Positions 9,905-33,028 of a stretch of DNA of 64,000 nt are shown piece by piece. Every line of letters starts with the position of its first letter. The stretch's first letter is position 1. The notes below the pieces were generated by a model that saw only the letters and a list, made by a program, of their open reading frames with translations, was not told the DNA's origin and did not search any database. The position numbers and the translations under genes are program-made. Origin of the DNA: Alphaproteobacteria bacterium (GTDB lineage: Bacteria > Pseudomonadota > Alphaproteobacteria > RF32 > CAG-239); contig JAZUCK010000010.1 in NCBI GenBank assembly GCA_045639065.1, positions 3,794-67,793 on the forward strand. Reading direction: 5' to 3'.

Positions 9905-9915
9905 GGTATTTGATT

Positions 9916-10605
9916 ATGGACGAAGAAGCAAGCTATTTAGGGCACAGGCAAAGGTTAAAAGAGCGCTTTTTACGAGGACAAGGCGCTGATATGGCAGATT
10001 ATGAAGCCATAGAATTATTGCTGACCTATGCGATACCAAGGAAAGATGTAAAACCATTGGCAAAAAGCTTAATAAAAAAATTCGGTTCGTTTGCCGGTGT
10101 AATATCAGCACCGATTGAAAGATTGTATGAAGTTGTAGGAATAAAAGAAAATTCGGCAACCTTAATCAAATTTGTTGAATTCGCTTCACAAAAATTGTCA
10201 TGGCAGAATTTGGCATTTGAAGATGCTCCTTACATTACTTCGACCGATAATTTAATCGAATTTTGCCGTTGCACAATGGGATATAGTGAAGTCGAAGTCT
10301 TGCGTTTAATCTATGTCGATGCCAAATTAAAAGTTATCGAAACCGAAGTGTTGCAAAAAGGTTCGGTTTCATCGGTTAATATTAACCCTCGAGACATTGT
10401 TGCAAATGCTTTGAAGAAAAATGCTTCCGGTGTTATTATGGTTCACAACCACCCAACCGGAGATCCAAGACCATCTAATAACGATATTGAAGCTACCAAA
10501 AGAGTTAAAATCGCTTGCGAAGCTGTCGGAGTTGCCTTACACGAACACCTTATCATTACTCCTTCTGATTTCTACTCTTTTGCTCATCATCATTTGATTG
10601 TCTAA
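9916..10605 (+). CDS. radC: RadC-family JAB/MPN domain protein, copy 1
   Basis: HNHPTGDPRPSNND (HxH-x7-S-xxD JAMM motif). ATG at 9916 preferred over the TTG at 9910. Confidence 0.9.
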   Translation: MDEEASYLGHRQRLKERFLRGQGADMADYEAIELLLTYAIPRKDVKPLAKSLIKKFGSFAGVISAPIERLYEVVGIKENSATLIKFVEFASQKLSWQNLAFEDAPYITSTDNLIEFCRCTMGYSEVEVLRLIYVDAKLKVIETEVLQKGSVSSVNINPRDIVANALKKNASGVIMVHNHPTGDPRPSNNDIEATKRVKIACEAVGVALHEHLIITPSDFYSFAHHHLIV

Positions 10606-12821: not shown

Positions 12822-14661
12822 TCTTGCCTTCTTTTGTTATCAACTTATCAAGTTTTTCAAGTTCATCAATATATTTTGATATCAAGCTTAAGCCTATATT
12901 CCAAAACTGTGCATCTTTTGGATTAAGTCCGAACGGCTTTAATATTTCATCATATTTTTTGACACCGGTCAAAGACAACATATTTAAATATTTGTCTTCA
13001 AAATCTTTGACTTTGCCGTCTTGATAAACCTGATATAATGAATTAACCAAACAATCGGCAAAAGAATAAGCGTAAACATAAAACGGTTTCCAAAAGAAAT
13101 GTCCGACCACAGCCCAATTATCTTCGGTAACCTCATCAATATTTACATATTTACCTAATGATGCACTCATCTCTTCACGCCAAATTTCAGCTAAGCGAGC
13201 TTGTGACACTTCGCCTTTGCGACGTTCATCATGAACTCTGGTTTCAAAGAAGTGAAAGGCAATTTGTCTTACGGCGGTGTTAATCATGTCATTAACTTTG
13301 CCGGCAATAAGGCAAAGTTTTTCTTTGTTTGACGTTGCTTGTTTTAACAAAGACTGAAAAGTCAACATTTCGCCAAAAACCGAAGCGACCTCAGCCAACG
13401 TCAAAGGTGTGGCATCATTCAAATCACCTTGTTTTGAGCTTAAGCGCATATGACAACCATGTCCCAATTCATGAGCCAAGGTTAAGACATCATTTTGCTT
13501 ACCGACAAAATTTAAGAACAAGTATGGGTGATACTTATCCGGCAAGGGCATAGCAAAGGCACCGCTTCTTTTTCCGTCACGTGGCGGAACATCTATCCAA
13601 GAGTGCTCTTTGTTAAAGAAATCTTTTGCCAAATCATAAAGTTTTGGTGAAAATTCCTTATAAGCTTTTAGGACCGTATCAACAGCCTCGTCCCATGAGT
13701 ATTTTTTGTCGCTCTCAAACGGAAGCGGGGCATTTCTATCCCAATATTCAAGTTTTTTGACACCGAGCCATTTAGCTTTTAGTTTATAAAAACGATGAGC
13801 AATGTTAGCATAATTTTCTCTGACTGTTTCGGCCAATGCTACAACTGCCTTGTCATCAACACGATTAGCCAAGTTTTGTGAAGCAACCGGAGATTTAAAA
13901 CCCCTTTTAATATCTTCAATAGCCTTGTCTTTTACTACCATATTATAAATTAAAGTAAATAAAGGTGCATTTTCTTTAAACACTTGAGCAATTTCTTTTC
14001 CGGCTTTTGCACGAACTTTAGCGTCTTTATCTAAGGTCAACTTTGAAATTTCGCTATCATTATATTCCTTACCGTCAACCACGAATTTTAATCTGGCTGA
14101 GGTTTCTTCATACAATCTTTGCCAACCATCACCTGATGTTACTGATTTTTCGTGCAAAATTTCCTCAACCGATTCAGATAGCTCATATTTTTTGAACAAT
14201 CTGATACGATTTAACCAAGGCGCATAGTATGATGCTTTTTTGTCTTTTAGCCACTCATCAATTTTTGATTGAGGAAGTTTGTTTAACTCTAAAGACAAAA
14301 AAATCAACGGCAAACCATAGTCATTAAGCTTTTCTGATGTATTTTGGTAAAAAGCCATAGCTTCGGCGTTTTTCATTTGAGTAACCATATTCAAATAAGC
14401 AAAAACACCTATTTTATTTCCTAAAACCGAGCGTTCTTCGCAATCTTTTGCCATTTCAAAAAATTGCTTTGCGCTTAAACTTTCCAATTTTCCCTTATAT
14501 TTTTTGGCAAAATTTATTGCTGATTTTCTATAGTTTTGCATATCGATTTCAATTTGTTTGTCGTCGATGCCATTATATAAATCAGATAAATCCCAAGCTA
14601 AAAGCTCATTCTTTTTGCAACATTTCTTCGCTGTATTCTTGGTTGTTTTCTTCATTTTCAA
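12811..14661 (-). CDS. pepF: oligoendopeptidase F (peptidase M3B)
   Basis: 616 aa, HELGHG zinc motif, WDLSDLY N-terminus. The start overlaps the upstream ORF by about 50 nt. Confidence 0.9.
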   Translation of the reverse strand: MKMKKTTKNTAKKCCKKNELLAWDLSDLYNGIDDKQIEIDMQNYRKSAINFAKKYKGKLESLSAKQFFEMAKDCEERSVLGNKIGVFAYLNMVTQMKNAEAMAFYQNTSEKLNDYGLPLIFLSLELNKLPQSKIDEWLKDKKASYYAPWLNRIRLFKKYELSESVEEILHEKSVTSGDGWQRLYEETSARLKFVVDGKEYNDSEISKLTLDKDAKVRAKAGKEIAQVFKENAPLFTLIYNMVVKDKAIEDIKRGFKSPVASQNLANRVDDKAVVALAETVRENYANIAHRFYKLKAKWLGVKKLEYWDRNAPLPFESDKKYSWDEAVDTVLKAYKEFSPKLYDLAKDFFNKEHSWIDVPPRDGKRSGAFAMPLPDKYHPYLFLNFVGKQNDVLTLAHELGHGCHMRLSSKQGDLNDATPLTLAEVASVFGEMLTFQSLLKQATSNKEKLCLIAGKVNDMINTAVRQIAFHFFETRVHDERRKGEVSQARLAEIWREEMSASLGKYVNIDEVTEDNWAVVGHFFWKPFYVYAYSFADCLVNSLYQVYQDGKVKDFEDKYLNMLSLTGVKKYDEILKPFGLNPKDAQFWNIGLSLISKYIDELEKLDKLITKEGKNAK

Positions 14662-15070
14662 GATCCTTTCTAAGCTTGTTTAAGCGCATCATATCTCTTT
14701 TTACATCAGGATATTTTTTTAAATATTCGGTTCGAGCTTCTTCATCAAAAAATGAATTATCCACAATTATCGGTTCATATATATAATTGCTCCACGGATA
14801 TTTTTGTTTGTTATCAATCCACAAATCAACACCCTCGGCAATAACTTTTACATTACACCATGTGTTATTCATTATGGCTTTTACCGTACAGTAAAAACCT
14901 TTGTTGCAATCACTCAAATTGTCTATCATTTCATGGGTGCATTTTACAAAACCGCGTTTATCAGCATCATCTTTTGGCGACATTACCAATAAAATAAACA
15001 GCAACATAAAAAAGCAAACTATAAAAGCAATCAGTCCGCCGAACCAATAACGTTTGATAAAACTCATCAA
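14606..15070 (-). CDS. membrane-anchored Cys-containing hypothetical protein (154 aa)
   Basis: N-terminal TM helix, then a domain with 5 Cys and an acidic C-terminus. Confidence 0.5.
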   Translation of the reverse strand: MMSFIKRYWFGGLIAFIVCFFMLLFILLVMSPKDDADKRGFVKCTHEMIDNLSDCNKGFYCTVKAIMNNTWCNVKVIAEGVDLWIDNKQKYPWSNYIYEPIIVDNSFFDEEARTEYLKKYPDVKRDMMRLNKLRKDLENEENNQEYSEEMLQKE

Positions 15071-15898: not shown

Positions 15899-17965
15899 AT
15901 GAAAAAACTTTTTTTTACAATATGTTTCAATATTTGCTTATTTGGAATTGCTAATGCCAAAATTACGCCTATTAGCGGATATACAAACATAACTCAACAG
16001 GTTGTGGGTAATAAAGATGAAGCTGTAAAAGAAGTTGACACCAAAGAATTTGCCGAATTTTTGGATATAAGGTTTAAAAATGCAAAAAAGGCAAACAAAA
16101 AAGAAATAAATAAGACATCATCAAATGCGCAACAAGAAATACAGCAGATTCAAAAAGAGGATGGCGGCAAAAATTTCTTTCAAAATATTTATGAAAATGC
16201 ACTGAAACGAATTCGTAAAAAATCAGATGAATCTCGAGATGATGTTGCTTTTGAAGATGATTTAAAAGCAATGTTAGATGCTGAAGGTTCAAATCAAATT
16301 GAAGAACAGACCAAACAATGGCGAAATTCTATAGTACCGATGATTACAGCTCTTTTACCGCCATATGATACGCCAACTGAAGTTCCGGCCATTGAGCACA
16401 TTCCTTATTTGATGAACGATATAGAAATTTTACCTAGCGGTATGGTTATGTTTGAGGAAACCGTAGTTGTTGTTGCAAATGGTCAAAAATTAAAATCAGG
16501 CCTAACTAAAATTCTTCCTTCTCAAAGAATGGACAAGAACGGAAAGACGCAAAACATTGATTATACAATCATAAGTGTTTCCATAAATGATGAACCTATA
16601 AATTACAGATTAGCAAAAGCAAATGATAATGTTTTGCTTGTGCCTGATAAATCTTATAGACTTCCTGCAGGCATTTATACTTATAAATTTCAATATTTAG
16701 CAGATAACTTGCTTATAAACAACGGCGACAACTATATGTTCTATTGGGATGCCGGCGGAAATGGTTGGAACTTGATTATTGACAGAAGTTTTGCCAAAGT
16801 ACGTACTCCTGACAAACAGGCTGTCATTCAGCAAGATGCCATTATCGGCTCAGCAAAAGCTTTTTATTCTGATAGCGTGACTATTGATGATGACGCAGTC
16901 TCACATAACTTTGAATCTCAAATACCTTTATTTATCGGAACAGGAATGCATATATTAACAAAAATCGATAAAGTTGCGTTCAATTCTATAACATTAGGTC
17001 AAAGGTTTATACGCTCATTTTATAATTATGGCGATGTATACATATCATTTATAGGATTGTTAGTCATTGCATTATCCTTTGCGATATCATGGCAATATAT
17101 CATCAACGGAAAGAGCAAAATAAAGACCTCTTTGAGTAAAACATCTTTGATGATAAGATATATGTTATATGAAAAATTTGATAAAAAATCTATTTGCGGA
17201 TTTTTACTGGATCTGTACAAAAAAAATATAATAGACATACAACAGTCCGGTGAGACTATTCTTTTAGTAAAATGTACCGACAACCTGAAATCACTACTAC
17301 CTTATGAAAGAAAAGCATTAAGGGCTATTTTCCCATCGCATGAAACTACTTTTTCGATAACCAAAACAAACAAACTTCCACTAAAACGTTTTGTAAAAAT
17401 ATTGGAGAAAGGTCTGAAAAAAGACGTACTTAAATTTAGCCTAAAATTAAACCTGAGCTATTTGTTCTTTAGTGTTGCAATGATGTTTGTTGTATGGTTC
17501 GGAATGGCATTCTTTAAGATAGATACAACATTTGTCCTCAGCATATTGACATTAACATCTTTGCTTTCTTTTGTCGGAGCTTGGTTGTGGTATGTCGGAA
17601 CTAAAAAATGGGTGAAAATCGTAGCTAGATATGTTTCCATAAACTTATTAACACTTAGTTTATTGATTTATTCTGCTGTTATTCATCCGCTTAGTGCGTT
17701 ACTTGTAATTTGGAGTATCTTCCTAACGGTTTATTCAATCAGAATGTTTTCAAAACGAAACGGATTGATTAGTTCATATGTTCAAGATATTATAAAGCAA
17801 AAAGAATATCTGCTAAATAATAAGAACACTGTGGTATTGAGTAAAGATTTTGCAAATAATCAAGCTTTGATTTTTGTTTGTGATTTGGAAAACGAGATAA
17901 AACCTGTTAACGAAGATGTTTGTTATAAGATACCGACAATAAAAAATATCATGGAACGTCTCTGA
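15899..17965 (+). CDS. DUF2207-like membrane protein (signal peptide, beta-rich ectodomain, C-terminal TM bundle)
   Basis: ATG at 15899 gives MKKLFFTICFNICLFGIANA. The segment YTYKFQY...FYWDAGGNGWNLIIDR...VRTP, and the TM followed by a helical juxtamembrane segment, resemble DUF2207 as I recall it. Confidence 0.55.
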   Translation: MKKLFFTICFNICLFGIANAKITPISGYTNITQQVVGNKDEAVKEVDTKEFAEFLDIRFKNAKKANKKEINKTSSNAQQEIQQIQKEDGGKNFFQNIYENALKRIRKKSDESRDDVAFEDDLKAMLDAEGSNQIEEQTKQWRNSIVPMITALLPPYDTPTEVPAIEHIPYLMNDIEILPSGMVMFEETVVVVANGQKLKSGLTKILPSQRMDKNGKTQNIDYTIISVSINDEPINYRLAKANDNVLLVPDKSYRLPAGIYTYKFQYLADNLLINNGDNYMFYWDAGGNGWNLIIDRSFAKVRTPDKQAVIQQDAIIGSAKAFYSDSVTIDDDAVSHNFESQIPLFIGTGMHILTKIDKVAFNSITLGQRFIRSFYNYGDVYISFIGLLVIALSFAISWQYIINGKSKIKTSLSKTSLMIRYMLYEKFDKKSICGFLLDLYKKNIIDIQQSGETILLVKCTDNLKSLLPYERKALRAIFPSHETTFSITKTNKLPLKRFVKILEKGLKKDVLKFSLKLNLSYLFFSVAMMFVVWFGMAFFKIDTTFVLSILTLTSLLSFVGAWLWYVGTKKWVKIVARYVSINLLTLSLLIYSAVIHPLSALLVIWSIFLTVYSIRMFSKRNGLISSYVQDIIKQKEYLLNNKNTVVLSKDFANNQALIFVCDLENEIKPVNEDVCYKIPTIKNIMERL

Positions 17966-17969
17966 TAGC

Positions 17970-18776
17970 TTATTTTACTACGTCTTCTAGGTTTTCATGA
18001 ACTTTCTTGGCCGTTTGGATAGCGGAATAGGCCTTTTCGGGCTTTCCGGCATAGCTTACTTCATAAGACATAACCTTAAAACCGAATGGGTTTTGCACAT
18101 AGTTGATTTTATCAATTTCACTTTTTTCAAGATCTTCGTAATTTTGAAAAGCCGAATACATTATTCTTAAGTAAGCCTTCCAAATAATAACATCAGGTTT
18201 TTCCATATTTTTGGCGGTTGTATAAGTTTTAAATCGTACAATCCAAAAGTCTCTGCCAACTTTCTTCACTTCGTCAATTTCAACCGTTCTTCTTACCTTT
18301 AGTTTTATAAAGCTTCTTATTTGAGCTTTATTTATTTTACCTATAAATTCATAATAGGTAGCACCGCCGGAATACCAATAAAACTTTGATTTATCGTCCC
18401 AACGATAGTATAAATCAGCAGTCGACGTAGGAATCTCATGCCTCATTTTAATGTAATCCGAAATATATTTTTCACTAAGCAGATCTTTGTATGATACAGT
18501 TATATTTAAGGGTTCTGTTCTATCTAAAGTGTAATCTATTTCATTAGCTCTGTATAATAGCGGACCGGATGTTTTTTGGTCGGGTAACATATAAATTACA
18601 AAAGTAAGAGCAATATTAACACAGATACTAAATACGGCACAAATGACCAAAATCCTTGAAGTCCACAAATATCTTCTTTCAGGAAATGCCGATACATGAA
18701 ATTTTTCCGGATAAAGACCTAGTTTATCAGGGCTTTTTTTGTCTTTATATCTGAATATAAGCGAAAAAAGACTCAT
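17970..18776 (-). CDS. VirB8-like bitopic inner-membrane protein, paralog A (268 aa)
   Basis: Short cytoplasmic N-terminus, one TM, about 200-aa periplasmic domain ending in NPFGFKVMSYEVSY (the NPxG motif of VirB8/TrbF). Confidence 0.65.
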   Translation of the reverse strand: MSLFSLIFRYKDKKSPDKLGLYPEKFHVSAFPERRYLWTSRILVICAVFSICVNIALTFVIYMLPDQKTSGPLLYRANEIDYTLDRTEPLNITVSYKDLLSEKYISDYIKMRHEIPTSTADLYYRWDDKSKFYWYSGGATYYEFIGKINKAQIRSFIKLKVRRTVEIDEVKKVGRDFWIVRFKTYTTAKNMEKPDVIIWKAYLRIMYSAFQNYEDLEKSEIDKINYVQNPFGFKVMSYEVSYAGKPEKAYSAIQTAKKVHENLEDVVK

Positions 18777-18803
18777 AAAATACTATCCTTTAAACGATAA
18801 CCT

Positions 18804-19583
18804 TTAGTACTCGTACATTTCTTGTCGCACTTCCTTAGCAGTATTTAAATAACTTTTTGGATCACCAGGAGTTCCGACATAAGCCAGTGCATAGTTTCTT
18901 ACAAGAAAACCGAATGGATTTTGCTCTCTTAATGACTTATTTTCATAGGGTATGGGAGCAAGAGCTGCTCTGATATATGCTCGCCAGATATTAATTATCG
19001 GAACTCTCTCCCCGGGATAATAATCCATGGTAATAAATTGTGCCTGCCAAAAACCTCGTGATGTCGGTCTTATCCACTCGACTTCGACAAGCCTTACCAA
19101 ACCTGTTGATTGAAAGTCTCGCACATTATTAACAATATCATTAGATGCAAATGCAGAATATACATCTCTTGATGACATCCAATAAAATTTTGAACCCGTA
19201 CCCCAACGATACATCAATTCATCGTAGTCAGATGAAATAACATGACGCAAATAAATATACTCTTCAATAAAGGACTCTGTTAGCAAGTCGAGTGCCGCTA
19301 TAGGTTTTTCTTGTCTTTCAACAACAGAAAGCTGACTAAAAATTTTATCATGATAAAATACCAGAGGATACGAGCTTCGTTGCGGTATCATCAAATATAT
19401 GCCGGATACCAACATAAGATTTAAGCAAATACTGAGACATGAAAAAATAACAAGCAAGCGAGTTGACCACAAATATCTCCTCTCCGGAAAAGCCATAGTA
19501 TGAATTGCTTCAGGATACTTTCCAAGCTTGTCCGGGCTTTTATTTTCTTTATATTTAAAAACAGTATTAAACAGACCAAGCAT
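18804..19583 (-). CDS. VirB8-like bitopic inner-membrane protein, paralog B (259 aa)
   Basis: Same architecture, NPFGFLVRNYALAY. ATG at 19583 preferred (AAGAGG 5 nt upstream) over the GTG at 19589. Confidence 0.65.
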   Translation of the reverse strand: MLGLFNTVFKYKENKSPDKLGKYPEAIHTMAFPERRYLWSTRLLVIFSCLSICLNLMLVSGIYLMIPQRSSYPLVFYHDKIFSQLSVVERQEKPIAALDLLTESFIEEYIYLRHVISSDYDELMYRWGTGSKFYWMSSRDVYSAFASNDIVNNVRDFQSTGLVRLVEVEWIRPTSRGFWQAQFITMDYYPGERVPIINIWRAYIRAALAPIPYENKSLREQNPFGFLVRNYALAYVGTPGDPKSYLNTAKEVRQEMYEY

Positions 19584-19754
19584 AAACACCTCTTATATAA
19601 AAATAAGATATTTCGATATTATCATAACACACTAATAATATCTTTTTTGTTAATTTTATACAACATTGTTGAATAAAAGCAAATAAAACTGTTAATATTT
19701 AAAATATTGATATAATCTATCATTGAAAGAACGTTCTATTTTAAGGTAGTGATA

Positions 19755-21650
19755 ATGAAAAAAATTATAGTATCATTTGGCTTTTTTGCGCTGTTAATAA
19801 CTGCATGCACAAATAACGGCGTTATTTTTAATGAAGATATCCCTGCTCCGGCAGCATATACTGATTGGGACAGAGCGATTCGTGTTGATACCGATATGCA
19901 AACAATGTATTCGGCAACTCCACGTAAAATTGAAAAACCTATCGATATGTACATGGCCTTTGCTCTTGCATTAAAGTATAACTATACTCGCAGATTGGTC
20001 AGCTATCAACAAAGCATGATTGAAGTCGGAAAGAATCCTGAGAATCGTCTGCCCGAAATTTTCTCTTCGGCCGGATATGTTAATACGGATAATGCCGATG
20101 CAATGGATTCTGAATTAAAGCTAGCATGGAATATTTTGGATATAAGTACGGTATATTATCAAAGTAAAGATGATTGGTACAAAACCAGTGTAGCCTATGA
20201 ACAAAGCCGAAAGGTTATTCATAACCTTATGCAAGAAACAAGAGTTTTGTATTGGAAAGCTTTGAGTGCCCAACGTTTACTTCCGCTTATTGATGATATG
20301 ATTGAATATATGACATTAGATGTTGATGAACTTAATGCAAGATCTGTTGATTTAGCCAAAGAAGGTTTAAGTCTTAATGTCGGCGAATTAGAACGTAAAC
20401 GTGAGTTTATGCAAGCCACTAAAGAGCTGTCTGACATTAAACGTGACTTAGAAACAGCTAATGTCCGCTTAGCATCATTGATGGGGTTCCATCCTTCAAC
20501 GGAATTCACTTTGGTCGGCAAAGAAATGGGTAACTTTGACTTGCCCGAAATCAAAAGCTCATTAAGCGAAATGGAATGGGTGGCTTTGACTAACCGTCCG
20601 GAACTAAGAGCCAGAGATTTGGTTACAAACGCTGATGAGGTTGTTGCCTCATTTAAAATCTTTTCCGATCCGGGTAATGTAAAATATAAAACCGATTCAA
20701 ACTACTATAACCGTACTTGGTCTAAAAAAGCAAAAGAAGTCGGAATGGAAGTGTTTGAAAAAGTTAATGACCCAAAATATTTCGAAGTTGAGGCTTTGCG
20801 TCGCCAACGCATGACAAACCTTATATTGACTCAAGTTTATGTCGCTTGGGCCCGATATATGTCAGCAGTCGAAGATTATGAAATAGCTCAAGAATTGGCT
20901 CGTGCCTCAGAAGATATTGCCGAAGACACTACTATTTCATCAGGTGCAAGAGCTGTGAATTCACAACTTGAATCAGCCAGAGCTATTGAAGACGAAGCTA
21001 AGGCTATGATTGCATATGTAAAATTGCAAGATGCTTTAGGCAATTTGTATTCAACATTGGGTATGGATGCAATTCCTTATTATATGTTGAACGAAAAACC
21101 ATCAAAAATTGCTATCTACTTACGCGGTGTTTTAGAAAAATGGCGCAAGGGCGAATTTTTACCGGATAACCGTCCTTATATGTTAGATGTTCCGACCAAA
21201 CGTCCGCCGGTAAATTTATCATCGCAAGCATTGATACCGGACTTGGTATTGGAAAGCGGTCAAAAAATAAATGTTTATATTCCGCAGTCAATCATCAACA
21301 AACTTGACCCTCAGGGTAAAGTTACCATTAAGGCAGGTATGATTGATGACACTCCTTTACCTGATTGGTTAATGTTTGATGAAGCCAGAAGATCATTTAT
21401 CGGTATGGCTATGCCGGGTAATGTAGGTAATCATCAGGTTAAAGCTTATATTTCAGATGAAGAAGGCAGGGTCGGATTTATAACTTTCGGAATTAAAATT
21501 ACCGATGTTTATGTCCCCTCAATAAAAATGAAAGGTTTAACCGAAGGACGTACTGCTCAGGTTTTGAAGCGTTGTGTCGGACGACAATGTTCCGATGAAT
21601 ATATTACCGATACTACTGTCGGTCGAGATGTTTCAAAAAATCGCAGATAA
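19755..21650 (+). CDS. TolC-like outer-membrane factor lipoprotein with C-terminal Ig/cadherin-like module
   Basis: Lipobox LLITAC. Two OEP-like helical repeats (ALKYNY..., NVRLASLMGF, NRPELRA). C-terminal PLPDWLMFDEARRSFIGMAMPGNVGNHQVKAYISDEEG resembles putative-Ig/CADG domains. Confidence 0.6.
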   Translation: MKKIIVSFGFFALLITACTNNGVIFNEDIPAPAAYTDWDRAIRVDTDMQTMYSATPRKIEKPIDMYMAFALALKYNYTRRLVSYQQSMIEVGKNPENRLPEIFSSAGYVNTDNADAMDSELKLAWNILDISTVYYQSKDDWYKTSVAYEQSRKVIHNLMQETRVLYWKALSAQRLLPLIDDMIEYMTLDVDELNARSVDLAKEGLSLNVGELERKREFMQATKELSDIKRDLETANVRLASLMGFHPSTEFTLVGKEMGNFDLPEIKSSLSEMEWVALTNRPELRARDLVTNADEVVASFKIFSDPGNVKYKTDSNYYNRTWSKKAKEVGMEVFEKVNDPKYFEVEALRRQRMTNLILTQVYVAWARYMSAVEDYEIAQELARASEDIAEDTTISSGARAVNSQLESARAIEDEAKAMIAYVKLQDALGNLYSTLGMDAIPYYMLNEKPSKIAIYLRGVLEKWRKGEFLPDNRPYMLDVPTKRPPVNLSSQALIPDLVLESGQKINVYIPQSIINKLDPQGKVTIKAGMIDDTPLPDWLMFDEARRSFIGMAMPGNVGNHQVKAYISDEEGRVGFITFGIKITDVYVPSIKMKGLTEGRTAQVLKRCVGRQCSDEYITDTTVGRDVSKNRR

Positions 21651-21654
21651 AACT

Positions 21655-21691
21655 CTAAAAAAAGCAACTCAACTGAGTTGCTTTTTTTTTT
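21655..21691. terminator. bidirectional terminator between convergent genes
   Basis: agcaactc-aact-gagttgct hairpin flanked by A- and T-runs. Confidence 0.7.
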
Positions 21692-23481: not shown

Positions 23482-24171
23482 ATGGAAGAAGAAGCGAGCT
23501 ATATTGGCCACAGACAAAGATTAAAAGAAAGATTTTTGCGCTCAAAAGGAGCGGATATGGCCGATTACGAGGCCTTAGAGTTGCTGCTTACCTATGCGAT
23601 ACCAAGGAAAGATGTAAAACCTTTGGCTAAAAGTCTGATTAAAAAATTCGGTTCGTTTGCCGGTGTAATATCAGCACCGATTGAAAGATTGTATGAAGTT
23701 GTAGGAATAAAAGAAAATTCGGCAACTCTGATAAAATTTATCGAATTTGCTTCGCAAAAATTGTCATGGCAGAATTTGGCATTTGAAGATGCTCCTTACA
23801 TTACTTCGACCGATAATTTAATCGAATTTTGCCGTTGCACAATGGGATATAGTGAAGTCGAAGTTTTACGTTTAATTTATGTTGATGCAAAATTAAAAGT
23901 TATCGAAACCGAAGTGTTGCAAAAAGGTTCGGTTTCATCGGTTAATATTAACCCTCGAGACATTGTTGCAAATGCTTTGAAGAAAAATGCTTCCGGTGTT
24001 ATTATGGTTCACAACCACCCGACCGGCGATCCCAGACCATCTAATAATGATGTTGAGGCCACAAAAAGAGTTAAATCTGCTTGTGATGCCGTCGGTATTG
24101 CTTTGCACGAACACCTTATTATTACTCCTTCTGATTTTTACTCTTTTGCTGAGCACAATCTCGTTGTTTAA
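23482..24171 (+). CDS. radC: RadC-family JAB/MPN domain protein, copy 2
   Basis: 229 aa, HNHPTGDPRPSNND. Long tracts are nucleotide-identical to copy 1. Confidence 0.9.
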   Translation: MEEEASYIGHRQRLKERFLRSKGADMADYEALELLLTYAIPRKDVKPLAKSLIKKFGSFAGVISAPIERLYEVVGIKENSATLIKFIEFASQKLSWQNLAFEDAPYITSTDNLIEFCRCTMGYSEVEVLRLIYVDAKLKVIETEVLQKGSVSSVNINPRDIVANALKKNASGVIMVHNHPTGDPRPSNNDVEATKRVKSACDAVGIALHEHLIITPSDFYSFAEHNLVV

Positions 24172-27890: not shown

Positions 27891-27965
27891 GCCGCTATAG
27901 CTCAGTGGTAGAGCACACCCTTGGTAAGGGTGGGGTCGTAAGTCCGATTCTTACTAGCGGCACCA
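27891..27965 (+). tRNA. tRNA-Thr (anticodon GGU), CCA encoded
   Basis: gccgcta-ta-gctc-agtggta-gagc-a-caccc-ttGGTaa-gggtg-gggtc-gtaag-tccgatt-cttac-tagcggc-acca cloverleaf. Confidence 0.9.
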
Positions 27966-28051: not shown

Positions 28052-28807
28052 CTACATCTGCTTAACTGTTTCTTTTGAATTATTTGCTACTTTACCAGAT
28101 AAATCAAATTTTTCACCCTTAAACATAAAGTTCTTAACGGCTTTAGATTGATTAAACTTATTCATATCAACAATCTCATTTTCTGTGATTACCCCCTCTT
28201 TTTTCAATTGTAAAAGGGCCAATCCAAAGGCTACGGGCTCATAGTCAGCATTTTTGCGAACATCGTCTTCTTTAAATCTTCCTTTTAAAACATATGATGA
28301 CATTACAAGAGTGTCTATACATTCTGCCAGAATCTCATAATCATTAATTTTTTTTGCAAATCTTGATGCTAATTCAACAACAATAGGAGACCATTCACCT
28401 TGAATGGATTTGATATAATGATCTTTCATAACCTTTTGTAAGTTAGAGTTATTTTTTATTTCTTGAATACTACCAAACCTCAATGATTGAGGAAGTTTAT
28501 ATTTTTCTATTACAATGTCTGCAGCTTCATTACACGCTTTACTAACTCCATTATCATCCAATTTCTTACAAGCAGAAACTCTTAATCTTTTAGTAAATTC
28601 TTCAATTGGCTCTTTAAGGTCGGGATATAAAGTCTGAATAAGTACGTTACTAATCTTGACTGGAACAGGAGGACGCTCGCCAACTAAATTTTCTATATAT
28701 TCATATGACGATTCAAAATGAGGATCATCCAAGTATTCCGGATTAGTCATATATGTAGCAATATGTAATAAATGCTTCGTACTAATCTCTTTTCCATCGT
28801 TGCTCAT
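28052..28807 (-). CDS. hypothetical protein (251 aa), downstream partner of the HExxH protein
   Basis: Long ORF, no signal peptide or recognisable motif. Confidence 0.55.
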   Translation of the reverse strand: MSNDGKEISTKHLLHIATYMTNPEYLDDPHFESSYEYIENLVGERPPVPVKISNVLIQTLYPDLKEPIEEFTKRLRVSACKKLDDNGVSKACNEAADIVIEKYKLPQSLRFGSIQEIKNNSNLQKVMKDHYIKSIQGEWSPIVVELASRFAKKINDYEILAECIDTLVMSSYVLKGRFKEDDVRKNADYEPVAFGLALLQLKKEGVITENEIVDMNKFNQSKAVKNFMFKGEKFDLSGKVANNSKETVKQM

Positions 28808-28917
28808 AGTTATATCCTTATATCTTTTTTTTCATTATAGCAAAAAATCATCAAATGAATGTACGAAATTCTGGTGCGCCATATTATTGCTCCTGTATTA
28901 GAAAATGCTTTTTTATT

Positions 28918-29892
28918 TTAACCGCCATTTACAACTTGGTTTGCGAATTGTTTTTGCGCAATCAAATTAGATTTACATTGTTTTTGCATATCGCCCGCAA
29001 ATTTTAATAAACTATCCATTCGCTCGATATCTTCTGTTTCCATAAATTGGGTTGTAACACCACCGTTTTTATAAAGATTAATTACCTTTTGTTGAAATGC
29101 ATAGATTTTATCAATTTCTTCAGATGTTTGAGCTTTTCTTAAACGATATTCTACAGCTCCTTTAAGCATTTCATCTGATCTTTTGCTATCTTCTTCATTT
29201 CCAATAACTTTAAATCCTTGCAAATACTCGGAAAACTTAGTTTTAGATGCCTTTATTGTTCGATCAAAGTCTTCAGCAAATCTTTCGCCTTTTCTAAAAT
29301 AGACATCTTGGATGAAAAAATTATCTTCAACATTTTCTCCGATAAGCAAATCAGCCATAATAAGTTGAGAGGAATATGTTGCACCACTATTTGGACCTAT
29401 AAGGTTATGTTTTCTGCTGGCCAAAGCGTCTGTTATAGACTCATTTAAATCTTCATTATACTTTTTGATAATATTTTCTTCACTGTCGTATTCAATATAT
29501 TTCGAGCCCATTTTTATATATTTTCCACCATTTTCCATTCTACCTGTCTCTGAAGAAAAAGCGTGTAATGATTCATGTGTTATCACGTGGGAACTTGCTT
29601 CCGGAAGAACTGCGATACCTGATGTGGTTGTACATAACTTGGAATTAATGTTTTCAAAAAATGCAATAGCGCCTGCATTAAATTTTCTATCCACCAAAAT
29701 TCCATCTTTGAGTGACTTAAACGTTCTACTGCCATCACACAAAAAGATTGTTAAATTGTTATATCTTTCTTCAACGTTTTCTTTGCAATCATCCGGTGCT
29801 ATTTTCATAGCAAACTCTTTTGCTGACTCTATTATTTCGGCAATTCTCGTATCTTTTGATGTTTCTTCATGGTCAGGGTTTCTAAAAATCAT
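28918..29892 (-). CDS. putative zinc metallopeptidase (HExxH) of unknown family
   Basis: SHVITHESLHAF contains HExxH. A possible third ligand lies in NESITDAL about 50 aa downstream. No signal peptide. TTGACG-17-TAGTAT promoter upstream. Confidence 0.55.
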   Translation of the reverse strand: MIFRNPDHEETSKDTRIAEIIESAKEFAMKIAPDDCKENVEERYNNLTIFLCDGSRTFKSLKDGILVDRKFNAGAIAFFENINSKLCTTTSGIAVLPEASSHVITHESLHAFSSETGRMENGGKYIKMGSKYIEYDSEENIIKKYNEDLNESITDALASRKHNLIGPNSGATYSSQLIMADLLIGENVEDNFFIQDVYFRKGERFAEDFDRTIKASKTKFSEYLQGFKVIGNEEDSKRSDEMLKGAVEYRLRKAQTSEEIDKIYAFQQKVINLYKNGGVTTQFMETEDIERMDSLLKFAGDMQKQCKSNLIAQKQFANQVVNGG

Positions 29893-30205
29893 GGCGCAAC
29901 CTCTCTATATGTAATACTAGCATTTTTAACCTCTACCGTCAAGTATATGTCAGAATGCTTTAGCCGAATTATCTTATTTTACATATTTTTTACAAATATT
30001 TATCTGCTTTTCTTACTTTCTAGGCTCAACAAGCGAGCATATTTCTTCATATTCGGCCGGCTGATTTAGCAAAATTTAGCAATATATCTATCATCTTAGC
30101 ACCTTTTTAACTTTGTTTTTGTAATTTCCTATCATAATAGTCTTAATTATTAATAAATGTACTTTGTTTTAATTTAATCTAAAATTCTTATGGAAATGGC
30201 GTAAA

Positions 30206-30652
30206 ATGGAATATTGTGTAAAAAAAGCTTTTATTTCTGATTGGCCCGATTTGATGATGATTTTTGATAAATCATTACGTTCAACTATTGACCTTCCTGA
30301 TGATGATTGGAAAAAGCTTTATGAGCGAGTAATAACATATAATTATCCGAATTTTGATACATATATCTATACACAAGACAGTAAAAGTGTCGGATATATC
30401 AATTATTCAAGGCAAGAAAAGAACATTAAACAGCTTTACGTTTTGCCGGAATACCACAATCAAGGTATCGGGCAAAAGTTGATTAAATATGTCTTAGAAA
30501 GCTATAATGAAACAATGACCATCGGTGTAAGAAAAGATAATGATGTCGCATTACATATCTACACAAAATATGGCTTTGAGATAATTAAGGAAGAAGAATA
30601 TGATGCTTCAGGAATTTACCTTCCGCATTATGTCTTGGAGAGAATAGTTTGA
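30206..30652 (+). CDS. GNAT N-acetyltransferase (148 aa)
   Basis: QLYVLPEYHNQGIGQKLI acetyl-CoA motif A. Confidence 0.8.
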   Translation: MEYCVKKAFISDWPDLMMIFDKSLRSTIDLPDDDWKKLYERVITYNYPNFDTYIYTQDSKSVGYINYSRQEKNIKQLYVLPEYHNQGIGQKLIKYVLESYNETMTIGVRKDNDVALHIYTKYGFEIIKEEEYDASGIYLPHYVLERIV

Positions 30653-30736
30653 TTTTGTAAAATGTTTTAACATAAAAAAAGAGTGTGATTAGTTATATTT
30701 AAGAAAATTACACACTAGTTAATGAGTAAAACAAAC

Positions 30737-30765
30737 TAGACAAAATCTTCAAAACATGATACTCT
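30737..30765 (+). promoter_or_regulatory. promoter module copy P4 (TAGACA-17-TACTCT, extended -10 TG)
   Basis: tagacaaaatcttcaaaacatgatactct matches about 22 of 29 nt of the module at 44350-44378. Confidence 0.55.
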
Positions 30766-30828
30766 AAATTATATTTTAAGGAATTTGAATTATACTTATC
30801 TTGTATATTATAAGAGGAGTAATGTAAA

Positions 30829-31446
30829 ATGAAACCGAAGGAATATTTAGAAAAAGTCAAAACAAAACTTAAAGATAAAGCGTCTAAAGCGGTTGTCGGA
30901 ACCGCTATCGCGGCCAGTGTTCTTTTTGGCGGTAAGCGCCTCTTTTCTGATGGTGGTGCTAATAAAATTCCGTTTAATGAACAAAAAGATTTTGCGGCAG
31001 CCGTTGTTAAAGGAGATGAAGTCAATAAATTTAAAATTCCGGCCAGTACTTTTAAGCTAGATTCAGTATCTGCAGTTGAAGAAATTAGTGATCTTATGGC
31101 TCCAGGTTTCGTTGATAGAAAAGATAAATCGGAAGTTGCCGCTACAATATACAGTAACATTAAAGCCATCGAAAATGCTGCAAATGACGAGGGAAAACCA
31201 TCAATCGAAGGCAGGATGGTATCAGGAACATCGCTTGACGGACGACATCAACATGGTTACCTTAAACCAAGTTATGGCAAGGTCACACCTGATGTAAATA
31301 CAATAGTCTCCGGAGAAAATAATACATATGATGTTTCTACAGAAACACCATATGGTTACACAGGTCCAATGGGAGAATTTTTGCGAGCGGATAGAATTTC
31401 TGTTTTTTTTGCTAATAATAATCGTCAAGTATTCCCTGAAAGATAA
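30829..31446 (+). CDS. membrane-anchored hypothetical protein (205 aa)
   Basis: AGGAG SD. One TM (AVVGTAIAASVLFGG) after a Lys-rich N-terminus. Confidence 0.6.
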   Translation: MKPKEYLEKVKTKLKDKASKAVVGTAIAASVLFGGKRLFSDGGANKIPFNEQKDFAAAVVKGDEVNKFKIPASTFKLDSVSAVEEISDLMAPGFVDRKDKSEVAATIYSNIKAIENAANDEGKPSIEGRMVSGTSLDGRHQHGYLKPSYGKVTPDVNTIVSGENNTYDVSTETPYGYTGPMGEFLRADRISVFFANNNRQVFPER

Positions 31447-31465
31447 GCATTTAATTATAAGGTTT

Positions 31466-31509
31466 CCAAAAAAAAGAGTGTGAGATTAAACTCACACTCT
31501 TTTTTTTTT
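31466..31509. repeat. hairpin repeat copy 1 (ccaaaaaaaagagtgtgagattaaactcacactc + T-run), also a bidirectional terminator
   Basis: Nearly identical to 33229-33265. Confidence 0.8.
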
Positions 31510-33028
31510 AGTTGTCTTGCTTGATTTTTGCATTTGCAGCCAAAAAACTATAATGAGATGTAATCAATATATCATATTCGATTTGTGTTAAACATTTTTT
31601 GTGTCTAATGTATTCTCGAATATGCTCTGCAGTTGCAACTTTGATGTACATTTCAAAAGCTTGCGGAGATATATCAAAGTTAAGCAGATACGTTTTAGCA
31701 ATAATTGCAAGCTGACAAGCATCCTGATAATTTGTAGCGAGACAATCTGCATTGGCTATTCTTGCAATAGCTACCTCGACTTCGTCACTTCGTTTACATG
31801 AACAAAGCGCTTTTACATCGTTAATAGTTCCACGTTCAACAGTGGCGATTTGAGCGTTTATTTCCAGTTGTTCCAAAGCATATTTCCTTAAATCAGCAGG
31901 CAACTGATTAAGCTTTTGGATATCAAGGCGATTCTGTTTTGCCATAACCCTTAATGCAGATTTTTGCAAATTTTCCGGCCAGTCAGTGAATGGAAAATAC
32001 TTGTCTATAAATACATAAGTATTCCATCGGTATATGACCTTGAGCTTATGAACAGGTTCAACTTTTTCGACAAATTCCGGACAATTTGCTTTAGAATAAC
32101 CACACATCCTCTCGCAAATTTGTGCAAATATTGCCGAATTGACTTTTTTGATATCTCCAAGCGCATTGAACACCGCATCAAATACTTCGACTCTTTTGTT
32201 TACGTAATTGTATGCAATTTTAAGCCAAGCCAATGCATCAGCCTTGCTGTCTAAACGTCCTGTGGTTTTGATATCATTGATGTCTTTAATATCAATACCT
32301 TGCGGAAGATTCTTAGGCTCGAATGCTTTGCTAATAATAATTTCCTTATTTTGTATGTTATCGATGTTCTCACGAATCCAAACATACGAATTAGGAAAAA
32401 GTTCTCTTAGGCAAGGAATGTAGTCATTAATCCCGCTCTTATAGTCATGGCTAGCAGCAAATTTCCACAACGTAGCTACCAGGTTGTCGTAAGGCTTTTT
32501 GTTTAAGATAATATGACGTAAATATTTGTACATCAAATATGTATCTTTTTCTTTTATTGCCTTCTCGATTATGACTTCAACAAGCTCATTGATGTCTATT
32601 ATCCTTTCGCAAGATACATTCTTGAATGCTTCCGGAACCTCGCAGAAAAGTTTTTGGATATACTCATTTGTGTAATTCAGAGAATCCAAAACTTTATTAG
32701 ATGGAGTGTGTTCTTTCAGCACTTTTACCATAATTGGTCGAGGTGCTTCAGAATTAAACAAACTGAACAATTCTGCGTCACTCTCAATCTCAAACGCCAA
32801 TTCAAACATTTTGTTTTCAATCATCCATTTGCGAAAATTTTCGCTCCAGACGTGACCTTTAAGAATAAAGGCTCGTTCATTACTGTGCTCAATCTCTCTC
32901 TTGAACAACCCGATTTCTTTTGACACATCGGTCGGTATAAACCATTTACACCGTTTGTTTGTTTTTTTTGTAAAGTGAAACCACAAACTGTCTGTTGATC
33001 TCACGATTTTGGAAAAAAGTTTTAACAT
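31508..33028 (-). CDS. hypothetical protein (506 aa), helical, no recognisable domain
   Basis: Long ORF. TTGACA-17-TATAAA promoter about 170 nt upstream of the ATG. Confidence 0.6.
   Translation of the reverse strand: MLKLFSKIVRSTDSLWFHFTKKTNKRCKWFIPTDVSKEIGLFKREIEHSNERAFILKGHVWSENFRKWMIENKMFELAFEIESDAELFSLFNSEAPRPIMVKVLKEHTPSNKVLDSLNYTNEYIQKLFCEVPEAFKNVSCERIIDINELVEVIIEKAIKEKDTYLMYKYLRHIILNKKPYDNLVATLWKFAASHDYKSGINDYIPCLRELFPNSYVWIRENIDNIQNKEIIISKAFEPKNLPQGIDIKDINDIKTTGRLDSKADALAWLKIAYNYVNKRVEVFDAVFNALGDIKKVNSAIFAQICERMCGYSKANCPEFVEKVEPVHKLKVIYRWNTYVFIDKYFPFTDWPENLQKSALRVMAKQNRLDIQKLNQLPADLRKYALEQLEINAQIATVERGTINDVKALCSCKRSDEVEVAIARIANADCLATNYQDACQLAIIAKTYLLNFDISPQAFEMYIKVATAEHIREYIRHKKCLTQIEYDILITSHYSFLAANAKIKQDN

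What the first reader, a model, noticed from the sequence alone, without database searches (positions are those of the whole stretch)
15899..21650. Orphan tandem VirB8-like pair, divergent TolC-like/Ig-domain lipoprotein and DUF2207-like protein: candidate undescribed envelope module
Two adjacent paralogs (17970-18776 and 18804-19583) share a conserved cytoplasmic N-terminus (K.KSPDKLG.YPE...AFPERRYLW). They also share one TM and a periplasmic domain of about 200 aa ending in NPFGF(K/L)V..Y. This matches the NPxG signature and overall layout of VirB8/TrbF/DotI NTF2-like type IV secretion components. No other T4SS gene (VirB1-7, B9-11, D4) occurs anywhere in this 64-kb window. Divergently transcribed from the pair, across a 165-bp shared control region, is a 632-aa lipoprotein. 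It combines TolC-like outer-membrane-factor helices with a C-terminal Ig/cadherin-like module (PLPDWLMFDEARRSFIGMAMPGNVGNH...), which is an unusual fusion. On the other side, 4 nt away and convergent, is a 688-aa DUF2207-like membrane protein with a large ectodomain. Together these give inner-membrane bitopic scaffolds, an outer-membrane channel-like lipoprotein and an ectodomain membrane protein. That is the parts list of a trans-envelope apparatus, but not in any arrangement I recognise.
Basis: partly seen in the sequence, partly recalled or inferred. Interest (0 to 1): 0.7.

Follow-up and report, generated by a model that had tools for sequence, protein, structure and literature searches.

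The report
VirB8 genes paired with TolC-like lipoprotein
In a large group of uncultured gut Alphaproteobacteria, one or two inner-membrane VirB8 proteins (normally type IV secretion parts) always sit back-to-back with a very conserved, divergent TolC-type outer-membrane lipoprotein carrying an extra Ig domain, a pairing I found no report of and which suggests an undescribed envelope-spanning assembly.

Summary
The four ORFs exist as described. Both 260-aa proteins are true VirB8-family members (Pfam E=3.5e-16 and 2e-12; the family profile hits solved VirB8/TraE/TrwG structures). The 631-aa lipoprotein is a divergent TolC/OEP-family protein with a C-terminal He_PIG/dystroglycan-type Ig domain. 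It fails Pfam OEP itself, but full-length homologs at about 30% identity pass it (E=1e-18 to 1e-29), and Foldseek returns only TolC-family channels for that part of the model.

Across 165 related loci, all from gut or rumen Alphaproteobacteria, the lipoprotein and a VirB8 gene are divergent neighbours wherever the contig reaches (82/82 and 71/71), while both flanks vary. The lipoprotein is as conserved as housekeeping genes. The second VirB8 copy comes from one old duplication and is absent from many species. DUF2207 is not part of the unit: it travels with an NTP-transferase/M3-peptidase block that is often inverted or elsewhere.

No other T4SS gene, membrane-fusion protein or transporter is in the 64-kb window or among the recurrent neighbour families I scanned. 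I could not inventory the whole genome, so a scattered T4SS remains the main rival.

Verdict: a real, conserved two-to-three-gene module of unknown function, most likely a VirB8 scaffold coupled to a TolC-like channel.

The parts
19755..21650 (+). OMF-Ig lipoprotein. It has a signal peptide with lipobox (Cys18), a divergent TolC/OEP-like two-repeat helical domain (about residues 55-465), a conserved linker, a He_PIG/dystroglycan-type Ig domain (about 495-606) and a tail with two invariant Cys (C607, C612).
   Evidence: Lipobox. Pfam He_PIG E=1.6e-4 and OEP E=0.29. Profile hit to dystroglycan E=6.5e-8, improving to 6.5e-13. AF2 models. Foldseek top hits are all TolC-family OMFs. Full-length homologs at about 30% identity pass Pfam OEP at E=1e-18 to 1e-29. 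Identity across the clade is 52-91%.
18804..19583 (-). VirB8-family protein, lipoprotein-proximal copy (p1). It is a bitopic inner-membrane protein and is present in every related genome examined.
   Evidence: Pfam VirB8 E=2e-12, 47.9 bits against a cutoff of 23.2. TM at residues 44-62. p1 clade in the tree. Always divergent from the lipoprotein.
17970..18776 (-). VirB8-family protein, distal copy (p2). It is a faster-evolving paralog from one ancient duplication and is absent from many species.
   Evidence: Pfam VirB8 E=3.5e-16. The family profile hits solved VirB8 structures, e.g. 4lso at E=4.6e-9. p2 clade, with 46 two-copy and 35 one-copy loci.
19584..19754 (.). 171-bp AT-rich divergent intergenic region between the proximal VirB8 gene and the lipoprotein gene. 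It is the presumed shared control region.
   Evidence: Sequence. The promoter scan is not informative in this AT-rich DNA (26 sites found against 27.6 expected).
21657..21688 (.). Bidirectional intrinsic-terminator-like hairpin 7 nt after the lipoprotein stop codon. It marks the lipoprotein gene as monocistronic.
   Evidence: 14-bp stem with T-runs on both strands.
15899..17965 (+). DUF2207 membrane protein. It is adjacent to the distal VirB8 gene in this window, but I judge it NOT part of the module.
   Evidence: Pfam DUF2207 E=1.3e-9. It is linked to the NTP-transferase block rather than to VirB8 in the related loci.

Best explanation
The real unit is a conserved two-to-three-gene envelope module. 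Its parts are a divergent TolC-family outer-membrane lipoprotein with an extra C-terminal Ig domain, and one or two VirB8-family bitopic inner-membrane proteins transcribed divergently from it.

Proposed mechanism (inferred, not shown):
- The lipoprotein trimerises into a TolC-like duct that projects from the outer membrane into the periplasm. By TolC topology both termini are periplasmic, so the Ig domains would sit at the equatorial or lower part of the duct.
- The VirB8 proteins are anchored in the inner membrane with NTF2-like periplasmic domains. They would act as the inner-membrane-side scaffold or adaptor that docks to the duct or its Ig domains. This matches the assembly-factor role VirB8 has in type IV systems, and it occupies the position that membrane-fusion proteins hold in TolC-dependent pumps.
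- The almost invariant cytoplasmic tail (FKYKEKxSPDKLGxYPE..A(F/M)PERRYLW) would recruit an unidentified cytoplasmic or inner-membrane partner encoded elsewhere.

Shown: family membership of both parts, topology, invariant gene linkage and strong purifying selection. Inferred: physical interaction, channel function, and substrate.
For: - VirB8 membership: Pfam above threshold, and the family profile hits solved VirB8/TraE/TrwG structures.
- TolC relationship: Foldseek returns only TolC-family channels for the helical domain with two independent models. Full-length homologs (E=1e-56 to 1e-115 to the profile; 30-33% identity by tblastn) pass Pfam OEP with two repeats and carry the same He_PIG domain. 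The barrel-hairpin motifs are conserved.
- Linkage: the lipoprotein and a VirB8 gene are divergent neighbours in 82/82 genome-set loci and 71/71 metagenome loci with room. The left flank has at least 5 different neighbours and the right flank at least 6. Linkage persists in a deep lineage, L090, where the lipoprotein is only 38% identical.
- Constraint: lipoprotein mean identity is 72%, equal to the M3 peptidase. The VirB8 cytoplasmic tail is 69% identical between paralogs, against 34% for the periplasmic domain.
- No T4SS, MFP or transporter genes were found in the window or among ten recurrent neighbour families.
- Established principle, from my own knowledge: bidirectionally transcribed pairs that stay conserved across distant genomes predict functional association.
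Against: - There is no direct evidence of interaction. No multimer modelling was possible.
- The whole genome could not be searched, so VirB4 and other T4SS parts may lie elsewhere.
- More distant OMF-Ig homologs (L088, L091) have no VirB8 nearby, so the lipoprotein family can function without an adjacent VirB8.
- The lipoprotein's housekeeping-level conservation would also fit a general TolC serving efflux pumps.
- The barrel segments of the lipoprotein are modelled with low confidence, as helices, so a true channel is not demonstrated.
- All loci come from one clade, so shared ancestry inflates the counts.
Confidence: 0.45

Rival explanations
1. Scattered T4SS. These genomes carry a vertically inherited, Rickettsiales-style dispersed type IV secretion system, and the genes here are simply its VirB8 copies. 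The TolC-like neighbour is then either unrelated or is co-opted as that system's outer-membrane part.
For: - The proteins are bona fide VirB8 family members whose best solved-structure matches are alphaproteobacterial VirB8s from Bartonella and Brucella.
- Duplicated VirB8 genes and scattered loci are known in Rickettsiales (literature retrieved, e.g. PMC2653234, which I did not read in detail).
- The strongly conserved cytoplasmic tail would fit binding to a conserved ATPase such as VirB4.
Against: - No VirB4/B6/B9/B10/B11/D4 was found in 64 kb or in the ten recurrent neighbour families scanned.
- From my own knowledge, in Rickettsiales the VirB8 copies sit with virB9/B10/B11/D4, which is not the case here.
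- This reading does not explain the invariant divergent pairing with the TolC-like gene through many rearrangements.
Confidence: 0.3
2. Coincidental or purely regulatory adjacency. The lipoprotein is the clade's general TolC, serving efflux or type I export pumps encoded elsewhere. The VirB8-like genes are relics with an unrelated role, and the two stay together only because they share a promoter region within a slowly rearranging clade.
For: - The lipoprotein is conserved at housekeeping level.
- It is monocistronic with its own terminator.
- Its distant homologs occur without VirB8.
- Neighbouring housekeeping genes are also broadly syntenic in the clade.
Against: - Both flanks of the pair have been rearranged repeatedly, yet the pair was never split in 153 informative loci.
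- The VirB8 genes are intact and strongly constrained in every species, so they are not decaying relics.
Confidence: 0.2
3. One reading: DUF2207, two VirB8 proteins and the TolC-like lipoprotein form one trans-envelope machine.
For: In this window the DUF2207 gene ends 4 nt from the distal VirB8 gene. The same arrangement is seen in about a quarter of the genome-set loci.
Against: - DUF2207 always stays beside the NTP-transferase gene.
- That block is inverted, so that the M3 peptidase abuts VirB8, or is absent from the locus in most species.
- Only 3 of 80 metagenome loci show DUF2207 next to VirB8.
- DUF2207 is weakly conserved, at a mean of 40% identity.
Confidence: 0.05

Closest known systems
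VirB8/TrbF/TraE/TrwG assembly factors of P-type type IV secretion systems (Pfam PF04335)
   Same: The topology is the same: a short cytoplasmic tail, one TM helix and a periplasmic domain of about 200 aa. The NPxG motif is present. The Pfam score is above threshold, and the profile matches solved VirB8 structures.
   Different: There are no neighbouring T4SS genes. The genes lie in chromosomal housekeeping context and are universal and vertically inherited within a clade. They carry a clade-specific, nearly invariant cytoplasmic tail motif. They are partnered with a TolC-like gene instead of VirB9/VirB10.
TolC-family outer-membrane factors (TolC, OprM, CusC, NodT; Pfam OEP PF02321)
   Same: The protein has a two-repeat architecture with long helical hairpins, conserved barrel-hairpin motifs and a lipoprotein anchor as in OprM/NodT. 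Foldseek top hits are exclusively this family, and homologs pass Pfam OEP.
   Different: The window protein itself fails Pfam OEP (11.4 bits against a cutoff of 22). It has a 23-aa deletion in the first hairpin loop. It carries an additional C-terminal He_PIG Ig domain and a Cys-pair tail of about 170 aa. No membrane-fusion protein or inner-membrane transporter is encoded nearby.
Rickettsiales vir homolog (rvh) T4SS with duplicated, scattered components
   Same: The host is alphaproteobacterial. Duplicated VirB8 paralogs are inherited vertically in the chromosome, and one copy evolves faster.
   Different: From my own knowledge, rvh VirB8 copies are embedded between virB9, virB7, virB10, virB11 and virD4. 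Here none of those is within 64 kb.
TolC accessory partners and periplasmic adaptors (membrane-fusion proteins; the YbjP lipoprotein bound to TolC, PDB 9tg4/9v52)
   Same: This is a conceptual parallel only: a non-transporter protein that docks onto a TolC-type duct. Those entries appear among the fold hits solely because they contain TolC.
   Different: VirB8 has an NTF2-like fold, not the hairpin/lipoyl/beta-barrel MFP architecture. No interaction has been shown here.

Membership tests
VirB8/TrbF family (PF04335) | Pfam model score above the gathering threshold | tested here: met
   60.1 and 47.9 bits against a cutoff of 23.2.
VirB8/TrbF family (PF04335) | Bitopic N-in topology with a single TM helix followed by a periplasmic domain of about 200 aa | tested here: met
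   Hydropathy gives one TM segment at residues 42-60 (distal copy) and 44-62 (proximal copy). Orientation is inferred from the family.
VirB8/TrbF family (PF04335) | Sequence relationship to solved NTF2-like VirB8 periplasmic domains, including the NPxG motif | tested here: met
   The family profile hits 4lso at E=4.6e-9, and also 2bhm, 5i97, 4jf8, 4o3v and 2cc3. NPFGF is conserved. The fold itself was not modelled.
Type IV secretion system (as a system) | Presence of a VirB4-family ATPase and core components VirB6/B9/B10 (plus or minus B11/D4) | tested here: inconclusive
   None was found among 30 window ORFs of 225 aa or more, nor in ten recurrent neighbour families. The rest of the genome could not be searched.
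TolC/OMF family (Pfam OEP PF02321) | Pfam OEP score above the gathering threshold | tested here: not met
   The window protein scores 11.4 bits, E=0.29, against a cutoff of 22. hhalign against E. coli TolC gives E=0.0015 with probability 16%.
TolC/OMF family (Pfam OEP PF02321) | Homology to undisputed OEP members, by transitivity | tested here: met
   P0269, P0273, P0283, P0324 and P0367 match the lipoprotein profile at E=1e-56 to 1e-115. They hit OEP at E=1e-18 to 1e-29 with two repeats. tblastn gives 30-33% identity over the full length.
TolC/OMF family (Pfam OEP PF02321) | Fold: two repeats of long antiparallel helical hairpins forming the periplasmic duct | tested here: met
   The AF2 model has confident hairpins at 140-202/209-242 and 342-396/401-435. 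Foldseek top hits are TolC, OprM/N/J, CusC, SilC, CmeC, VceC and NodT. TM-scores are only 0.3-0.54.
TolC/OMF family (Pfam OEP PF02321) | Four beta-strands per protomer forming a 12-stranded trimeric outer-membrane barrel | tested here: inconclusive
   The hairpin motifs LP..AGY / WN.LD and Y..N..W align with OEP-positive homologs. However, AF2 models these segments as low-confidence helices, and hairpin 1 is 23 aa shorter.
Tripartite TolC-dependent exporters (RND/ABC/MFS pump + MFP + OMF) | Membrane-fusion protein and inner-membrane transporter genes linked to the OMF | tested here: not met
   No HlyD/MFP, RND or ABC genes appear in the precomputed Pfam annotation of L001-L005, among the neighbour families or in the window. 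The rest of the genome was not searched.
He_PIG / dystroglycan-type Ig domain (PF05345) | Significant profile match | tested here: met
   The window protein alone scores 22.5 bits against a cutoff of 24, just below. The family profile hits dystroglycan 9c3c at E=6.5e-13. Many clade members carry a precomputed PF05345 hit. Foldseek rmsd to dystroglycan is about 3 A.
DUF2207 (PF09972), as a member of this module | Conserved linkage to the VirB8/lipoprotein pair | tested here: not met
   The Pfam domain is present (38.9 bits). But the gene follows the NTP-transferase block and is adjacent to VirB8 in only about 23 of 85 genome-set loci and 3 of 80 metagenome loci.

The most novel reading that the evidence does not exclude
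These bacteria have no type IV secretion system at all. A VirB8-family scaffold has been exapted as the inner-membrane partner of a specialised TolC-like duct whose periplasmic Ig domains are the docking sites. Together they would form a previously undescribed, essential-like trans-envelope apparatus, either a new export route or an envelope tether, that is core to a whole order of gut Alphaproteobacteria.
Probability: 0.3. Interest if true: 0.8.

Novelty: new variant of a known kind. Interest (0 to 1): 0.55.

Why it matters
To my knowledge, VirB8 is described only as a type IV secretion or conjugation assembly factor. TolC-family ducts are known to work with membrane-fusion proteins and inner-membrane pumps.

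A strictly conserved pairing of the two, in housekeeping chromosomal context and under strong selection, would be one of two things. It could be the first example of a VirB8 protein working outside a T4SS, or a T4SS variant that uses a TolC-like outer-membrane conduit. Either would extend how secretion-system parts are known to be recombined.

It also concerns an abundant but uncultured gut and rumen lineage about which almost nothing functional is known. Finally, it defines a wider, unnamed family of TolC homologs with a C-terminal He_PIG Ig domain.

Tried and rejected
- **Single-sequence searches:** searches of all four proteins against PDB gave nothing. Profiles were needed.
- **Wasted look-ups:** five encoding-contig look-ups on the window's own proteins failed because this assembly is not in that index. 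A Pfam-annotated walk along the contig was therefore impossible, and I scanned ORFs directly instead.
- **Direct TolC comparison:** hhalign of the narrow lipoprotein profile against E. coli TolC and CusC was not significant. The broader profile gave only E=0.0015, and a PDB profile search gave only a marginal NodT hit at E=0.29.
- **Cryptic VirB8 in L088:** I tested whether the small unannotated neighbours of the distant OMF-Ig homolog were cryptic VirB8 proteins. They were not.
- **Representative search:** it was largely swamped by giant He_PIG-repeat proteins.
- **Metagenome scans:** the scan seeded with L090's VirB8 alone found nothing. The repeat with an alignment returned only main-clade loci, so no further deep-branching versions were recovered.
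- **Literature:** searches for VirB8-like with TolC (0 papers), orphan VirB8 and the RF32/CAG-239 clade gave nothing relevant.
- **Promoter scan:** uninformative in this AT-rich DNA.
- **DUF2207:** rejected as a member of the module.
- **Hypothetical ORFs as T4SS parts:** I considered whether the window's hypothetical ORFs could be hidden VirB6/9/10. They have no Pfam or NCBIfam hits, and those I inspected at 28-33 kb look soluble.


Full report
**1. Observation.**

The four ORFs are present as described.
- DUF2207-like: 15899-17965 on the + strand.
- Two VirB8-like genes: 17970-18776 and 18804-19583, both on the - strand.
- Lipoprotein gene: 19755-21650 on the + strand.

The window has about 35% GC. 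The two VirB8-like proteins are 38% identical. They share a cytoplasmic N-terminal motif, one TM helix each and an NPFGF motif near the C-terminus.

The lipoprotein has a lipobox (LLITAC). Its gene follows a Shine-Dalgarno-like AAGGTAG and ends at a strong bidirectional terminator at 21657-21688. The divergent intergenic region is 171 bp.

**2. What the proteins are.**

*VirB8 copies.* Both pass Pfam VirB8 well above threshold, at E=3.5e-16 and 2e-12. A family profile hits solved VirB8, TraE and TrwG structures from Bartonella, Brucella, pKM101, R388, Rickettsia and Agrobacterium, with the best at E=4.6e-9.

*Lipoprotein, C-terminal part.* Residues of about 495-606 form a He_PIG/dystroglycan-type Ig domain. 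The profile gives E=6.5e-8 against dystroglycan, improving to 6.5e-13 with a broader profile.

*Lipoprotein, N-terminal part.* The first ~470 residues match nothing by direct sequence search and fail Pfam OEP (E=0.29). Three lines of evidence nevertheless place it in the TolC family.
- Two AlphaFold models (pLDDT 61 and 74) show two repeats of long helical hairpins. Foldseek returns only TolC-family channels for this part: TolC, ST50, OprM/N/J, CusC, SilC, MtrE, CmeC, VceC and NodT.
- An exhaustive profile search found full-length distant homologs at E=1e-56 to 1e-115. These pass Pfam OEP with two repeats at E=1e-18 to 1e-29, and most have the same He_PIG domain. tblastn gives 30-33% identity over the full length. 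JGI names one of them 'outer membrane protein TolC'.
- The barrel-hairpin motifs align with those homologs.

*Caveats on the TolC assignment.* TM-scores are low (0.3-0.54). The barrel segments are modelled as low-confidence helices. The clade's proteins have a 23-aa deletion in the first hairpin loop. So the TolC ancestry is secure, but a functional channel is not demonstrated.

**3. Distribution and linkage.**

Homologs of the VirB8 proteins occur only in uncultured gut and rumen Alphaproteobacteria. Record titles include 'Proteobacteria bacterium CAG:495' and 'Azospirillum sp. UMGS63'. From my own knowledge these correspond to the GTDB RF32-type lineage; I did not test this.

*Adjacency.* Among the 85 loci held at that point (80 from species-level genomes, 5 from earlier contig look-ups), the lipoprotein and a VirB8 gene are divergent neighbours in all 82 with room. 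The same holds in 71 of 71 independent metagenome loci with room.

*Flanks.* Both flanks vary.
- On the lipoprotein side the neighbours are nrdDG in most loci and several other genes in the rest.
- On the VirB8 side they are DUF2207, the M3 peptidase, tgt-containing blocks and others.

*Deep lineage.* Linkage persists in L090, which has 28% GC and a lipoprotein only 38% identical to the clade's. There a 548-aa multi-TM gene lies between the two genes. More distant OMF-Ig homologs (L088, L091) have no VirB8 nearby.

*Conservation.* The lipoprotein is conserved as strongly as the housekeeping neighbours: 72% mean identity, the same as the M3 peptidase, against 40% for DUF2207.

**4. The VirB8 paralogs.**

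A distance tree separates all lipoprotein-proximal copies from all distal copies. That indicates one ancient duplication, with the distal copy evolving faster. Of 81 genome-set loci, 35 have only the proximal copy.

The cytoplasmic tail is the most constrained region. It is 69% identical between paralogs, against 34% for the periplasmic domain. This points to a conserved cytoplasmic or inner-membrane partner that remains unidentified.

**5. DUF2207.**

It has a genuine DUF2207 N-terminal domain. However, it always sits beside the NTP-transferase gene of an NTP-transferase/p154/M3-peptidase block. That block is inverted or absent in most species. DUF2207 is next to VirB8 in about 23 of 85 genome-set loci and 3 of 80 metagenome loci. 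It is not part of the module.

**6. T4SS inventory.**

Thirty further window ORFs of 225 aa or more are ordinary housekeeping genes, including BacA, AlaRS, XseA, a MurA-type enzyme, FtsY, Mdh, FabF, MltG, Lgt, QueA and SucCD. A VirB8 HMM finds only the two copies.

Five ORFs without Pfam hits also lack NCBIfam hits, and those inspected look soluble. Ten recurrent neighbour families in related loci contain no T4SS, MFP or transporter domains.

The whole genome could not be examined.

**7. Interpretation.**

The best-supported reading is a conserved module consisting of a TolC-derived outer-membrane lipoprotein with periplasmic Ig domains and one or two VirB8-family inner-membrane scaffolds. Physical coupling between them is inferred from the invariant divergent linkage and from VirB8's known role as an assembly factor.

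The main rival is a dispersed T4SS encoded elsewhere. A third possibility is that the lipoprotein is simply the clade's general TolC and the adjacency has no mechanistic meaning.

I found no literature describing a VirB8-TolC pairing.

**8. Verdict.**

The module is real but smaller than proposed: the lipoprotein plus one or two VirB8 genes, without DUF2207. I rate it a new variant built from known families. Interest is moderate to high, pending a whole-genome T4SS inventory and an interaction test.

Noticed in passing
window 28052-33028 (next to tRNA-Thr at 27891-27965): A run of ORFs of 251, 324, 205 and 506 aa has no Pfam or NCBIfam match and looks soluble. It lies directly downstream of a tRNA gene, so it could be a small genomic island or clade-specific genes.
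   Followed up: partly
window 9910-10605 and 23482-24171: Two RadC-like JAB-domain genes lie in the same 64-kb window. The first has a Pfam RadC hit; the second was recognised from its sequence and its tblastn match in L007.
   Followed up: no
window 14606-15070: A conserved 154-aa protein with an N-terminal hydrophobic segment and no Pfam or NCBIfam hit always sits between the NTP-transferase and M3-peptidase genes, overlapping the peptidase start. This three-gene block plus DUF2207 moves as a unit across the clade.
   Followed up: partly
L090:4141-5787: In the deep-branching low-GC lineage (28% GC), a 548-aa multi-TM protein with no Pfam hit is inserted between the VirB8 gene and the OMF-Ig gene, co-directional with the latter. 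It might be an additional module component in that lineage.
   Followed up: partly
L088:6801-12046 (also L089): A distant lineage (45% GC) carries two OMF paralogs near each other: one of 635 aa with a faint OEP hit, and one of 681 aa with OEP plus He_PIG. They are 33% identical and interspersed with small unannotated genes of 86-254 aa, next to a Sel1-repeat protein. No VirB8 is detectable.
   Followed up: partly
L001-L003, L006-L008, L011-L015 and other loci, left of the lipoprotein gene: In most related genomes the anaerobic ribonucleotide reductase genes nrdD/nrdG lie immediately downstream of the lipoprotein gene, and flagellar fliI/fliJ lie a few kb further on. In the window that position is occupied instead by a GDPD-like gene and a serine-hydrolase-like gene.
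   Followed up: no
L001:16988-20807: A serine recombinase (Resolvase/Recombinase/Zn_ribbon_recom) with DUF2924 and DUF6291 genes follows the cold-shock gene on this contig. The sibling contigs L002 and L003 end before this point. It looks like a prophage or mobile-element insertion.
   Followed up: no
window 35859-38036: A 725-aa protein matches the NCBIfam 'fused MFS/spermidine synthase' model (E=4e-11).
   Followed up: no
one search hit list (P0242-P0390): The He_PIG domain of the lipoprotein matches hundreds of giant proteins of 1,000-8,000 aa that carry up to 44 tandem He_PIG repeats. They are presumably surface adhesins, and they swamped the representative search.
   Followed up: no
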